64,000 nt of DNA. Origin: Octopus vulgaris. Lineage: Eukaryota. Shown one piece after another: positions 1,566 through 31,544 of the stretch; the first letter of the stretch is position 1; the number at the start of each line of letters is the position of its first letter. The notes under the pieces are model-generated. The model saw only the letters and a program-made list of their open reading frames with translations, made no database searches and was not told the origin of the DNA. The translations under genes and the position numbers were made by a program. The DNA lies in assembly GCA_951406725.2 (NCBI GenBank), contig OX597841.1, positions 1,178,001-1,242,000 of the forward strand, in the 5' to 3' direction.

Positions 1566-1640
1566 AAATGGCTCATTCATACGGTATTGTTTCTTTTTTC
1601 TCTCCATTTCTTGGTGTAAATATGCCTGAATTGTTTGTCA

Positions 1641-3420
1641 TTTGATAAACAGGGTGGTTATTACTTCACACTATTTGTTGTTTGATAAACAAGGTGGTAA
1701 TTACTTCAACCTATTTGTTGTTTAATAAACAAGGTGGTTATTACTTCACACTATTTGTTGTTTAATAAACAAGGTGGTTATTACTTCACACTATTTGTTG
1801 TTTGATAAACAAGGTGGTTATTACTTCACACTATTTGTTGTTTGATAAACAAGGTGGTTATTACTTCACGCTATTTGTTGTTTAATAAACAAGGTGGTTA
1901 TTACTTCACACTATTTGTTGTTTGATAAACAAGGTGGTTATTACTTCACACTATTTGTTGTTTGATAAACAAGGTGGTTATTACTTCACACTATTTGTTG
2001 TTTGATAAACAGGGTGGTTATTACTTCACACTATTTGTTGTTTGATAAACAAGGTGGTTATTACTTCACACTATTTGTTGTTTGATAAAAAAGGTGGTTA
2101 TTACCTCACACTATTTGTTGTTTGATAAAAAAGGTGGTTATTACTTCACACTATTTGTTGTTTGATAAACAAGGTGGTTATTACTTCACACTATTTGTTG
2201 TTTGATAAACAAGGTGGTTATTACTTCACACTATTTGTTGTTTGATAAACAAGGTGGTTATTACTTCACACTATTTGTTGTTTGATAAACAAGGTGGTTA
2301 TTACTTCACTCTATTTGTTGTTTGATAAACAAGGTGGTTATTACTTCACTCTATTTGTTGTTTGATAAACAGGGTGGTTATTACTTCACACTATTTGTTG
2401 TTTGATAAACAAGGTGGTTATTACTTCACACTATTTGTTGTTTGATAAACAAGTTGGTTATTACTTCACACTATTTGTTGTTTGATAAACAAGGTGGTTA
2501 TTACTTCACACTATTTGTTGTTTGATAAACAAGGTGGTTATTACTTCACACTATTTGTTGTTTGATAAACAAGGTGGTTATTACTTCACTCTATTTGTTG
2601 TTTGATAAACAAGGTGGTTATTACTTCACTCTATTTGTTGTTTGATAAACAAGTTGGTTATTACTTCACACTATTTGTTGTTTGATAAACAAGGTGGTTA
2701 TTACTTCACACTATTTGTTGTTTGATAAACAAGGTGGTTATTACTTCACACTATTTGTTGTTTGATAAACAAGGTGGTTATTACTTCACTCTATTTGTTG
2801 TTTGATAAACAAGGTGGTTATTACTTCACACTATTTGTTGTTTGATAAACAAGGTGGTTATTACTTCACACTATTTGTTGTTTGATAAACAAGTTGGTTA
2901 TTACTTCACACTATTTGTTGTTTGATAAACAAGGTGGTTATTACTTCACTCTATTTGTTGTTTGATAAACAAGGTGGTTATTACTTCACTCTATTTGTTG
3001 TTTGATAAACAGGGTGGTTATTACTTCACACTATTTGTTGTTTGATAAACAAGGTGGTTATTACTTCACACTATTTGTTATTTGATAAACAAGGTGGTTA
3101 TTACTTCACACTATTTGTTGTTTGATAAACAAGGTGGTTATTACTTCACTCTATTTGTAGTTTGATAAACAAGGTGGTTATTACTTCACTCTGTTTGTTG
3201 TTTAATAAACAAGGTGGTTATTACTTCACTCTATTTGTTGTTTGATAAACAGGGTGGTTATTACTTCACACTATTTGTTGTTTGATAAACAAGGTGGTTA
3301 TTACTTCACACTATTTGTTGTTTGATAAACAAGTTGGTTATTACTTCACACTATTTGTTGTTTGATAAACAAGGTGGTTATCATTCCACACTGTTTGTTA
3401 TTTGATAAACAAGGTAGTTA
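1641..3420. repeat. 40-bp minisatellite, about 44 copies
   Basis: Unit TTTGATAAACAAGGTGGTTATTACTTCACACTATTTGTTG in exact 40-bp register; no spacers. Confidence 0.98.
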
Positions 3421-3891
3421 TTTCACTCTGTTGTTTGATACAACAAATAGGGATGGTTGGTTTCATGTCACCTCTGCTCTTCAGAAGTAGTTGGCTCCAT
3501 ATCATTTCTGCTCTTCAGTGGTGGTTGGTTCCATAACTCCTCTCCTCTAGCATTTCTAACTCATCATGTCCCATCATGTCATTCATCGTCCATACTTTTT
3601 CCAAGTGCCATTCTCTGCATCAACCACTAAACCCACTTAATCTCCTCAGGACTTTAGCCCTCTGGAATTCCCTACCTCTACTCATACTTCGCGTATAGAC
3701 ACCCACGCATGACAGTTCTAGATAAATGTCAGCTCCATTGACAATTGACGGCCTGGACTGGCTTTGGCCTCAACTACCTCCTCCTAATCAATCCAATAAA
3801 AGCACGATATATCTGAAGACATATACTAGGAAGAACCGGAACCGAGGTTGATATATAAATAAGTGCATGTGTGTGTTTGTATGTGTGTATA

Positions 3892-4943
3892 CCAAGGGGT
3901 CCACCAAGGTTCAGTCCTCAGCCCCCTCCTATTTATCATAGTCCTCCAGGCAATAACGGAGGTATTCAAGACAGGATGCCCCTGGGAGCTCCTCTATGCT
4001 GATGACCTTGCTCTAATTGCTGAGTCACTATCAGAACTAGAGGAGAAGTTTCAAGTGTGGAAACAAGGATTAGAATCAAAGGGCCTTAGAGTCAACCTAG
4101 CTAAAATTAAAGTCCTAATAAGCAGGAAGGCAGACAAACTACAAATCCCTTCAGGTAGATGGCCCTGCTCGATCTGTAGTAGAGGTGTGGGTAGAAACTC
4201 TATAAGATGTACCCAGTGTAAGCTATGGACACATAAGAGGTGCAGTAATATCAAAGGAAGGCCAATTGGGAAGATAGTTTTTATATGTGGCAGATGCTCG
4301 GGTGCAATAAACACTGACAACGCGCAGAAAACAACTTCTGCCACATTCCAGGGAGAAAAACTAGAAGTAGTTGATAGCTTCCGTTACCTAGGTGACCAAG
4401 TCAGAAGCGGAGGAGGGTGCGCTGAAAGTGTAGCTGCTAGAATAAGAATAGCTTGGGCAAAGTTCAGAGAGCTCTTACCCCTGCTGGTGACAAATGGGCC
4501 TCTCACTCAGAGTAAAAGGTAGACTGCATGACGCATGTGTATGAACAGCCATGCTACATGGTAGTGAAACATGGGCTGTGACTGCCGAGTACATGCGTAA
4601 GCTCGCAAGGAATGAAGCCAATATGATCCGATGGATGTGTAATATCAGTGTGCATACTCGACAGAGTGTAAGTACCTTGAGAGAAAAGTTGGACATCAGA
4701 TGTGGTGTGCAAGAGAGACGACTGCGCTGGAATGGTCATGTGGCGAGAATGGATGAGGATAGCTGTGTGAAAAAGTGCCACACCCTAGTGGTTGAGGGAA
4801 CCTGTGGAAGAGGTAGACCCAGGAGGACCTGGGATGAAGTGGTGAAGCACGACCTTCGACCTTTAGGCCTCACCAGGGATATGACTAGTGACCAAGACTT
4901 ATGGAAATATGCTGTGCTTGAGAAGACCTGGCAAGCCAAATGA
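3892..4943 (+). pseudogene. Disrupted reverse transcriptase ORF with embedded C4HC3 finger
   Basis: ORFs 3863-4522 and 4551-4943 join once a 1-bp insertion near 4495 and an in-frame TGA near 4542 are corrected. Confidence 0.9.
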
Positions 4944-23118: not shown

Positions 23119-23167
<49 letters not shown>

Positions 23168-23177
23168 TATATATATG

Positions 23178-23210
<33 letters not shown>

Positions 23211-23229
23211 TTATTTATTATATAGAAGG

Positions 23230-23280
23230 AGCTTCTACAGGACTAGTACTGTTTCATTCAAGAGAAATCTTCAGGAAGCT
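23230..23280 (-). ncRNA. Type I hammerhead ribozyme (inverted copy)
   Basis: Exact reverse complement of 23638-23688. Confidence 0.8.
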
Positions 23281-23419
23281 ATTTAACAAGAATTGTATTA
23301 GCATTTATACATATGTATATATATATATGTATGTATGTGTGTATGTGTAGGTATGTATAGGCACACATGTGTACGTATGTGTGTGTGTATGTATATGTGT
23401 ATATGTATGTATGTGCACA

Positions 23420-23775
23420 CATTTTATTTTTATTTTTTTATTTTTTTACTTTTTTTACTTTTTACTTTTTACTTTTTTATTTTTTTATTTTTTTATTTAT
23501 CTATTCTTTCACCTAACTTACCACTGACTCCTTGACCACTCCCCCAAGTATGATATTTTGCGCTATGCCTACCCCCAAAAAAGTCCCCCACCACCACTCC
23601 TTTAAATGTATAAATGCTAATACAATTCTTGTTAAATAGCTTCCTGAAGATTTCTCTTGAATGAAACAGTACTAGTCCTGTAGAAGCTCCTTCTATATAA
23701 TAAATTAATTTTACTCTGCTATGTATTGAGTACCTTACTTACTGTGGTTAACCCCGGATCAACCCGGGACCTACA
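23420..23775 (+). mobile_element. Penelope-like terminal repeat (family P1) with an inverted partial copy at 23213-23312
   Basis: Carries a hammerhead; homologous 3' part at 31270-31405; ends in (TA)n. Confidence 0.7.
23638..23688 (+). ncRNA. Type I hammerhead ribozyme
   Basis: Stem I AGCTTC/GAAGCT, CTGAAGA, stem II TTC/GAA, GAAA, stem III CAG/CTG with loop TACTAGTC, GTA cleavage triplet ending at 23682. Confidence 0.8.
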
Positions 23776-24189
23776 TATATACATATATATATATGTGTGT
23801 GTGTATGTATATATGGACTGAACCCGGAACCATGTGGTTGGGAAGCAAGCATCTTACCACACAGCCGCAAATTTTATACCATAACCATTTTGTCTGTCTG
23901 AAGAATTACATTTCCTTCTCTCTCTCATTATCTCACACATTCTTTTAATGAACTGTTTATAATTAGTTTAATGTAACATGTGGCATATTTCTGTGTTACG
24001 TATTACATATAATGTTTAAATTACTCTTTTAGTGGTTAAGTCCAATTCATGATTTTCGGATTACAGTCTCTGATAGTCCACACCATTAATAAAAGGGTTA
24101 TCTTTATCTGCTAGACAATAAACTATAATATCTGCTACATTAGCTCTCTACAGCTCAGTACAACATCCCATTCCATTATAATGATACAA

Positions 24190-30806: not shown

Positions 30807-31269
30807 TTGTTGTTGTTGTTATTATTGTTGTTATTATTATTATCATCATCATCATCATCATCATTATCATCAGTTTTTTAAAGCTCTCTTGTATATATAT
30901 ATATGTGCTAGTGTATTTATATATATGTATGTGTGTGTCTGTATGTATATACATGGCATATGTATATGTATGTGTATGGATATTCGTATGTGTATGTATG
31001 TGGGTTTGTATGTATATTTATTTTATATGTTCTTTTATGTATACTTATCTACTTCTTCCCTCCACTTAATAACAACAACAACAACAAACTGACTAAAAGC
31101 GATAGTCTTCTAATTTACCTAAAACTCAATTCTATTATTCTATTTATTCATTTATTTACTTTATCACTGATTCTTTTGACCACTCCCCTAAGAAAGACAG
31201 TTTGTGCCCTGCTTACCCCAAAAAATGTCCCCCACCAACACCCCATTAAATCTGCTTATTTTGACAGCA

Positions 31270-31320
31270 AGCTTCCTGATGATTTGATTTGAATGAAACA
31301 GTTCTAGTCCTGTAGAAGCT
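31270..31320 (+). ncRNA. Type I hammerhead ribozyme (family P1, third copy)
   Basis: AGCTTC-CTGATGA-TTTGATTTGAAT-GAAA-CAG TTCTAGTC CTG-TA-GAAGCT; stem II weak. Confidence 0.72.
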
Positions 31321-31544
31321 CCTTCTATAAAATAAATTAATTTACTCTGCTATGTATTGAGTACCTTATTTACTGTGGTTAACCCCGACTCAACCCGGGA
31401 CCTACATATATATATATATATATCATCAACATCTAATGTTCGTGTTCCATGCTGATATGGGTTGTAAGGTTTTATAGGTCTCATGGACCAAAAGGACTGC
31501 ATCGTGGTCCAGTGACTGCTTTGGCATGGCTTCTGCAACTGGAC

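What the first reader, a model, noticed from the sequence alone, without database searches (positions are those of the whole stretch)
23213..23705. Two hammerhead ribozymes on opposite strands in a perfect 100-bp inverted repeat
Seen: 23213-23312 and 23606-23705 are exact reverse complements, each with a full type I hammerhead (6-bp stem I, CUGAAGA, GAAA, GUA site). A third copy at 31270 varies at N7, stem II and loop III while stems I and III and the core are unchanged. Known: inverted partial terminal repeats with hammerheads are a Penelope hallmark. Inference: a recent insertion; a transcript from either strand carries one ribozyme plus its own antisense, so cleavage competes with a long hairpin.
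Basis: partly seen in the sequence, partly recalled or inferred. Interest (0 to 1): 0.72.

Follow-up and report, generated by a model that had tools for sequence, protein, structure and literature searches.

The report
Head-to-head Penelope insertion with twin hammerheads
The two mirror-image ribozyme motifs are the two halves of one likely recent jumping-gene insertion, a known and here very common layout, and the thousands of sister copies carry junction marks suggesting that the element is likely copied twice from a capped RNA that starts at the ribozyme's first base.

Summary
The 100-bp inverted repeat and three type I hammerhead motifs are real. They are 3' ends of a Hydra-clade Penelope-like element: 713-aa RT/GIY-YIG ORF, ~5.1-kb unit, (TA)n target, at least 8,035 hammerhead copies in G000. 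The layout is published (inverted truncated copy, tail at one end; Penelope-13_HM has hammerheads on both strands). The 'competition' idea fails: on either strand the antisense arm comes first and the duplex (-166 kcal/mol) is predicted to trap the ribozyme (-7). Sister copies add mechanism: 32 of 32 unselected inverted pairs have one tailed arm and one arm 69 nt shorter. Short arms stop at helix I's first base (645 perfect palindromes against 5-29 at other sites), often with an untemplated G (447 matches). Few stop at the cut site. Likely model: two sense cDNAs from uncut, capped RNA, joined head-to-head. Cleavage and transcription are untested. This scan noted similar stubs and cap marks earlier on other DNA of this genome.

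The parts
23121..23208 (.). (AT)n target microsatellite, left flank
   Evidence: sequence; family copies end in (AT)n
23209..23212 (-). 4 extra bases at the short-arm junction (slippage-like repeat of the arm end)
   Evidence: same extra unit at L024 and L086
23213..23312 (-). Short (tail-less) arm: inverted, 5'-truncated copy of the element's 3' end, ending at the internal start site equivalent to 23705
23230..23280 (-). Type I hammerhead motif 1; predicted cut between 23236 and 23235
   Evidence: descriptor search; cleavage not tested
23313..23605 (+). Microsatellite-like 3' UTR and upstream pLTR part of the tailed arm (the 'spacer'); matches sister copy L038
23606..23705 (+). Part of the tailed arm that mirrors the short arm
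23638..23688 (+). Type I hammerhead motif 2; predicted cut after 23682. 23638, the first base of helix I, is the inferred transcription start of the family
   Evidence: start site inferred
23706..23774 (+). 69-nt 'tail' between the two inferred reverse-transcription start sites; in tandem copies the ORF ATG follows 45 nt later
23775..23794 (.). (AT)n target microsatellite, right flank
30889..31405 (+). Third copy: single tailed arm of an older subfamily (89-93% to its best relatives); no inverted partner found in the window
31270..31320 (+). Type I hammerhead motif 3; predicted cut after 31314; a private change at 31286 breaks a helix II pair

Best explanation
This is one insertion of a Hydra-clade Penelope-like retrotransposon into an (AT)n tract, made of two 5'-truncated copies of the element's 3' end set head-to-head, and it likely arose when the element's enzyme cut both target strands and made two sense-strand cDNAs, one from each of two fixed start sites 69 nt apart, which were then joined at their truncated ends. 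Shown: the family, the parent ORF, the target, the two fixed arm ends and the one-tailed/one-short rule. Inferred: two separate cDNAs; that most templates are uncut RNAs capped at the first base of helix I (arms stop there with an extra G); and that this copy, whose arms run 32 and about 325 nt past that point, came from a read-through RNA of a tandem copy. The twin ribozymes are a by-product of integration. In read-through RNA from either strand they are predicted to be locked in a 100-bp duplex. The ribozyme's likely job is in the parent RNA, where it would occupy nt 1-51 and cutting after nt 45 would remove the cap (untested).
For: Parent: pLTR-ORF-3'UTR-pLTR units of 4.8-5.3 kb; intact frames in L102 (713 aa from the first Met) and L103; 91 homologues at 33-53% identity; Hydra motifs conserved in the alignment (against PMC8557442 section 11). 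Copy number: 8,035 hammerhead-half and 5,288 tail matches, controls 0. Pairing rule: 32 of 32 divergent pairs picked only by the ribozyme core have one short and one tailed arm (31 full tails, 1 partial). In a partly tail-selected set it was 32 of 34, with no tail/tail pair. In 6 of 6 older pairs the partner was closer than any of the 26 other arms. Wall at helix I: of 81 tailed arms (81 of the first 100 listed), 32 end within 12 nt 5' of the core, 14 of them at helix I's first base; 17 end inside the core; 1 near the cut site; 5 further 3'; 26 are longer. Perfect palindromes centred there: 645, against 15 at the 3' helix I strand, 5 at the loop III palindrome and 29 helix I cross-junctions. 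Extra G: 447 matches; 30 of 30 inspected are junctions, some directly on (AT)n, and 4 insertions carry it on both arms; 0 of 28 arms that continue upstream have G there. An extra G marks cap copying in L1 (PMC11702581, passage). Two internal start sites bracketing the tail and nicking of both strands were shown in vitro for an anole PLE (PMC11167929). Contigs of other runs break at the same three boundaries (table 7).
Against: Nothing was tested at the bench. The G could be a terminal-transferase addition at an uncapped end. About 10 of 19 G junctions in the C1 sample are ambiguous because the partner arm can supply the G, and multi-base fold-back junctions do exist (10 of the first 100). Palindrome counts use exact patterns of different lengths (22-30 nt), so they are not strictly matched. 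The C1 samples come from one chromosome end. One pair (L102) had two short-type ends and one (L121) was uninterpretable. In the young subfamily partners cannot be told from other copies, so one RNA versus two is not resolved. The active hammerhead fold is not the minimum-energy fold of the isolated motif (p=0.024), and Rfam does not recognise it. Family subfamilies show no compensatory stem changes, only invariance; covariation is visible only across distant relatives. No target-site duplication can be read in (AT)n.
Confidence: 0.75

Rival explanations
1. Self-priming (snap-back) on an antisense template makes the inverted arm as a copy of the first, as proposed for rotifer Penelopes.
For: PMC3846280 (Discussion passage) reads palindromic junctions this way. 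645 perfect palindromes exist here, and partner arms share subfamily variants.
Against: It does not explain an untemplated G at the sense 5' end, on both arms in 4 insertions, nor why each arm has its own fixed (AT)n-primed end, one with and one without the tail. Many junctions are asymmetric, as in this window.
Confidence: 0.12
2. One reading: the locus makes an RNA in which self-cleavage and a long hairpin compete.
For: The motifs are intact and identical. A transcript starting between the arms would have a free ribozyme.
Against: The antisense arm precedes the ribozyme on both strands; duplex -165.9 versus -7.3 kcal/mol. The layout recurs at thousands of loci as an integration product. No host coding exon was detected among 103 ORFs of 90 aa or more scanned; the only Pfam hit was an unrelated RT fragment (short exons would be missed).
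Confidence: 0.05
3. Short palindromic copies arise after insertion, by hairpin-stimulated deletion of the spacer between short palindromic words, so the wall at helix I says nothing about the RNA.
For: A palindromic 4-mer lies at the junction and is a direct repeat on both sides of any spacer. Lesions at the 3' helix I strand are concentrated in short pairs.
Against: A longer palindrome in loop III is used 5 times against 645. Arms without a partner also stop at helix I with an extra G directly on (AT)n (L325, L339, L342).
Confidence: 0.08
4. The wall is a 3' splice site at helix I, as in D. virilis Penelope, and short arms are copies of splicing products.
For: An AG preceded by a pyrimidine-rich stretch lies at helix I's start in the subfamilies seen. 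In D. virilis the intron ends at helix I (PMC4209133).
Against: No shared upstream exon in 30 of 30 junction loci; upstream sequences are the partner arm, (AT)n or unrelated DNA.
Confidence: 0.07

Closest known systems
Hydra clade of C-terminal EN+ Penelope-like elements (Craig et al. 2021, PMC8557442; passages, sections 10-11, supplement parts 1-2 and search hits read), e.g. Penelope-13_HM, Hydra-1_Obim, Hydra-1_Ajap
   Same: Single RT + C-terminal GIY-YIG ORF; DKT, RWK-like, CxCX5C linker, no CCHH, CxxC and CxH; (TA)n target; sense hammerhead in the pLTR; U·U at 10.1-11.1 in 14 of 25 listed families. Penelope-13_HM is listed with an inverted 5'-truncated copy and a hammerhead on each strand.
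   Different: Unit about 5.1 kb (about 3 kb microsatellite-like 3' UTR) versus under 3 kb; tail 69 nt versus 30-40; loop III 8 nt versus 0-3; RWR for RWK. By eye a different family from Hydra-1_Obim (different N-terminus and hammerhead; identity not computed).
Anolis Poseidon PLE 'PAc' in vitro (Frangieh et al. 2024, PMC11167929; parts 1-2 of 4 read)
   Same: Two internal RT start sites bracketing the tail, AT-rich target, both strands nicked and extended, uncut RNA as the main template, predicted dimer.
   Different: Different clade; the hammerhead overlaps the ORF start there and lies about 130 nt upstream here. In the parts read there is no strict one-tailed/one-short pairing, capped start at helix I or cap G.
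PLE hammerheads and opposite-strand pairs (Cervera and de la Pena 2014, PMC4209133; parts 1-2 of 4 read)
   Same: Type I motif in pLTRs, palindromic loop III, dual motifs 100-700 bp apart on opposite strands noted in Schistosoma, low in vitro activity.
   Different: Those motifs have G10.1-C11.1, a long helix II and little or no helix III; here U·U, a 3-bp helix II and a 4-bp helix III that can close as a monomer or pair as a dimer (14 of 16 bp).
L1 twin priming and 5' extra G (PMC11702581, passages)
   Same: Both target ends prime cDNA, junctions join by microhomology, and an extra G marks copying to the cap.
   Different: L1 arms cover adjacent, non-overlapping parts of one RNA; here both arms cover the same 3' segment from two fixed sites.
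Metazoan non-LTR retrozymes (bioRxiv 10.64898/2026.07.22.740005, part 1 of 5 read; PMC7229834, listing only)
   Same: Short type I hammerhead repeats related to PLE pLTRs.
   Different: Retrozymes are head-to-tail tandems; these are head-to-head stubs of a coding element present in the same genome.

Membership tests
Hydra-clade PLE | Single ORF with RT and C-terminal GIY-YIG endonuclease | tested here: met
   713-aa ORF with YRDD and VY..YIG. Pfam gave no RT or GIY-YIG hit for this protein itself; 1 and 2 of 30 aligned homologues hit them weakly
Hydra-clade PLE | DKT in place of DKG; RWK motif | tested here: met
   SDKT present; RWR where most homologues have RWK
Hydra-clade PLE | CxCX5C linker, no CCHH between GIY and YIG, CxxC and CxH around E/N | tested here: met
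   compared with PMC8557442 section 11
Hydra-clade PLE | Insertion into (TA)n | tested here: met
   both ends here; nearly all junctions listed
Hydra-clade PLE | Short element (generally under 3 kb) | tested here: not met
   unit 4.8-5.3 kb; described as a tendency, not as a diagnostic feature
Hydra-clade PLE | Phylogenetic placement among reference Hydra RTs | not tested
   no tree built; assignment rests on motifs and on 33-53% identity to like-motif proteins; only 22% to a different PLE ORF in L040
EN+ PLE insertion structure | pLTRs from partial tandems; inverted 5'-truncated copy; tail at one end only | tested here: met
   tail is 69 nt instead of 30-40
Type I hammerhead ribozyme | CUGANGA/GAAA core, three helices, NUH site | tested here: met
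   descriptor finds 3 in the window versus 0.05 in shuffles; 39 sense and 0 antisense hits in 33 of 78 related loci versus 0.1 shuffled
Type I hammerhead ribozyme | Canonical G10.1-C11.1 pair | tested here: not met
   U·U, but fixed in the family and common in the clade
Type I hammerhead ribozyme | Match to an Rfam hammerhead model | tested here: not met
   none at E<=10
Type I hammerhead ribozyme | Mg2+-dependent self-cleavage | not testable with these tools
   needs a bench assay
Non-LTR retrozyme | Head-to-tail tandem short units, each with a hammerhead, non-coding | tested here: not met
   head-to-head arms of a coding element

The most novel reading that the evidence does not exclude
Genomic footprints of this family reveal the Penelope integration cycle: a dimeric enzyme makes two sense cDNAs, always one from each start site, on capped and uncut RNA whose transcription starts at the first base of the hammerhead. 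The ribozyme is then a cap-removing switch at the mRNA's 5' tip (cut after nt 45), not a unit-length processing device. Promoter-started RNA yields only short palindromic stubs, and only tandem read-through RNA moves the ORF. Small lesions 1-4 nt after the cut site may record the enzyme crossing a cleaved template.
Probability: 0.4. Interest if true: 0.68.

Novelty: new member of a known kind. Interest (0 to 1): 0.4.

Why it matters
As a locus it is ordinary: one of thousands of such insertions, in a published layout. As an entry to the family it bears on two open questions named in the literature: how Penelope-like elements make inverted copies with a tail at one end, and what their hammerhead is for. 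The strict pairing rule, the stop at helix I with an extra G and the scarcity of stops at the cut site give sharp predictions, and a young family with intact ORFs in which to test them.

Tried and rejected
Rfam scans: no hammerhead model matched the two short stretches; the 150 listed hits of 420 for the whole window were microsatellite-driven miRNA noise. The repeat finder was swamped by microsatellites. Expression: no RNA holder listed (14 holders are only guessed RNA). Contigs of three of four runs cover the parent pLTR and ORF, but contigs cannot show ends, strand or editing, so transcription, cleavage ends and A-to-I editing at this locus stay open; no reads were laid on the locus itself. 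Host gene: 103 of 174 candidate ORFs scanned, only an RT/PHD fragment at 3863-4519. Cleaved RNA as the main template: rejected, since 1 of 81 tailed arms ended near the cut site (and that one is a doubtful alignment) and only 15+29 exact junctions start there. Microhomology alone as the cause of the junction hotspot: rejected. One versus two RNA molecules: not resolved. The partner-end column and the first position are alignment artefacts and were not used; 8 of 36 unpaired matches and 19 of 100 tail matches were not examined. Assembly artefact: rejected (thousands of loci, same boundaries in other runs). Literature: ten searches found no paper reporting a capped start at helix I, a cap G or an obligatory tailed/short pairing in PLEs, and none on the activity of U·U 10.1-11.1 hammerheads. 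[quoted passage not shown]

Full report
Observation. The two 100-nt segments are exact reverse complements. Each holds a type I hammerhead layout: 6-bp helix I, CUGAAGA, a 3-bp helix II closed by U·U, GAAA, a 4-bp helix III with an 8-nt palindromic loop, and a GUA site. A descriptor finds exactly three such motifs in the window (core at 23274 on -, 23644 and 31276 on +) against 0.05 per shuffled window. Rfam does not recognise them.

What it is. A search of G000 with 261 nt gave 1,211 candidates, one of them 100% identical on another contig. Exact patterns count 8,035 copies of the ribozyme's 3' half and 5,288 tails, with 0 in reversed controls. Longer loci show the parent: repeat with hammerhead and tail, then 45 nt, a 713-aa ORF, about 3 kb of microsatellite-like 3' UTR, and the repeat again, in units of 4.8-5.3 kb. 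[quoted passage not shown] These are the diagnostic features of the Hydra clade in PMC8557442 (section 11), which also targets (TA)n. I built no tree. The window copy belongs to a small sublineage with a 10-bp deletion and a shorter UTR, shared with L002/L038 and L003/L037. The third copy (30889-31405) is a lone tailed arm of an older subfamily, with a private change that breaks helix II.

Is the ribozyme credible? Across 163 family rows (overlapping loci not removed), recurrent variation falls on N7 and loops II and III while the stems, core and U·U stay fixed. In 78 related metagenome loci the descriptor finds 39 hits in 33 loci, all on the sense strand, against 0.1 in shuffles; 17 of the 39 have U·U at 10.1-11.1 (counted by eye). 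In the published Hydra table 14 of 25 families have it. So U·U is a clade trait. Helix III can close as a weak monomer hairpin (-1.4 kcal/mol) or pair between two molecules (-15.2). The active fold has p=0.024 in the isolated 51-mer. Cleavage is untested; related PLE hammerheads are slow or need protein (PMC4209133, PMC11167929).

The layout is known. Inverted 5'-truncated copies and a tail at one end only are standard for PLEs (PMC8557442; PMC3846280). Opposite-strand hammerhead pairs 100-700 bp apart were noted in Schistosoma (PMC4209133), and Penelope-13_HM is listed with hammerheads on both strands. Here 64 of the first 100 genomic matches lie in divergent pairs within 10 kb.

The arms point outwards, so read-through on either strand makes the antisense arm first. 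Both strands fold into the full hairpin; the duplex is -165.9 kcal/mol against -7.3 for the active fold. No host exon was detected (short exons would be missed), and transcription of the locus is unknown.

What sister copies show. (a) Arms end at two fixed sites, 23705 and 23774. In 32 of 32 pairs chosen only by the ribozyme core, one arm is short and one tailed. In an earlier, partly tail-selected set it was 32 of 34, with none tail/tail. (b) 5' ends pile up at helix I: of 81 tailed arms, 32 end within 12 nt 5' of the core, 14 of them at helix I's first base; 17 end inside the core, 1 near the cut site, 5 further 3', and 26 are longer. Perfect palindromes centred there number 645, against 15, 5 and 29 for three other self-complementary junctions (patterns differ in length). 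(c) Arms ending at helix I often carry a G that the element does not encode: 447 matches. All 30 inspected are junctions, three lie directly on (AT)n, four insertions have the G on both arms, and 0 of 28 continuing arms have it. About half of the G junctions in the C1 sample are ambiguous, and longer fold-back additions are a minority (10 of 100). In L1 such a G marks copying of the cap (PMC11702581). The base before this site is a pyrimidine in 27 of 28 full arms, as expected of a Pol II start (general knowledge). (d) In 97 C1 arms, 13 of 14 indel positions fall 1 or 4 nt after the cut site, mostly in short pairs; this is rarer in 116 mostly long arms. Contigs of other runs break at the same three boundaries.

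Mechanism, inferred. The enzyme nicks both strands of (AT)n and starts one cDNA at each internal site, as the anole PLE does in vitro (PMC11167929). Most templates are uncut RNAs capped at helix I's first base, which gives stubs of at most 68 and 137 nt joined head-to-head. Read-through RNA from tandem copies gives longer arms; the window copy is of this class, with arms 32 and about 325 nt past the start. The ribozyme would then sit at nt 1-51 of the mRNA, where cutting removes the cap. Rivals: antisense self-priming (PMC3846280), post-insertion spacer deletion and a splice site at helix I each fit part of the data but not the extra G on both or on lone arms.

Novelty and score. The locus is a new member of a known kind and ordinary within its genome. 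The junction footprints were not found in ten literature searches of an incomplete library, and they make the PLE integration model and the ribozyme's role testable. Earlier notes of this scan on other DNA of this genome report similar stubs and a cap G; I saw them after my own counts and do not count them as support. Interest 0.40; most novel reading probability 0.4, interest 0.68 if true.

Noticed in passing
window 3863-4519 (+): Fragment of an unrelated retroelement ORF with RVT_1 and PHD-finger Pfam hits.
   Followed up: no
window about 1634-3570: Homogeneous 40-bp tandem array, about 46 overlapping register copies at 95-96%.
   Followed up: no
L040:1-1965 (-); L036:5913-6956 (-): A different Penelope-like ORF (DKG motif, 22% to the Hydra protein) and a GIY-YIG fragment with CCHH-type cysteines lie near family copies.
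   Followed up: partly
L108-L116 and other G000 copies: Many of the youngest full-length copies share one frameshift (frame ends at 506 aa) at 100% identity, so a defective sublineage seems to have been amplified in trans or to use a frameshift.
   Followed up: no
G000 C1 sample, positions equal to window 23683 and 23686: Recurrent 1-2-nt deletions just after the predicted cut site, mostly in short palindromic insertions; they may record crossing of a cleaved template or pausing at helix I.
   Followed up: partly
L114:2357 (run X1): One contig joins 255 nt or more of foreign sequence exactly at the AG within helix I; it may be a host exon spliced into the element.
   Followed up: no
family loop III (window 23670-23677): The young subfamily's change lengthens the loop palindrome from 4 to 6 bp and strengthens the predicted dimer (-15.2 versus -12.8 kcal/mol).
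   Followed up: partly
L033 and other long copies: About 3 kb of 3' UTR looks like degenerate microsatellite yet is a conserved part of the element, so some apparent simple repeats in this genome are transposon sequence.
   Followed up: partly
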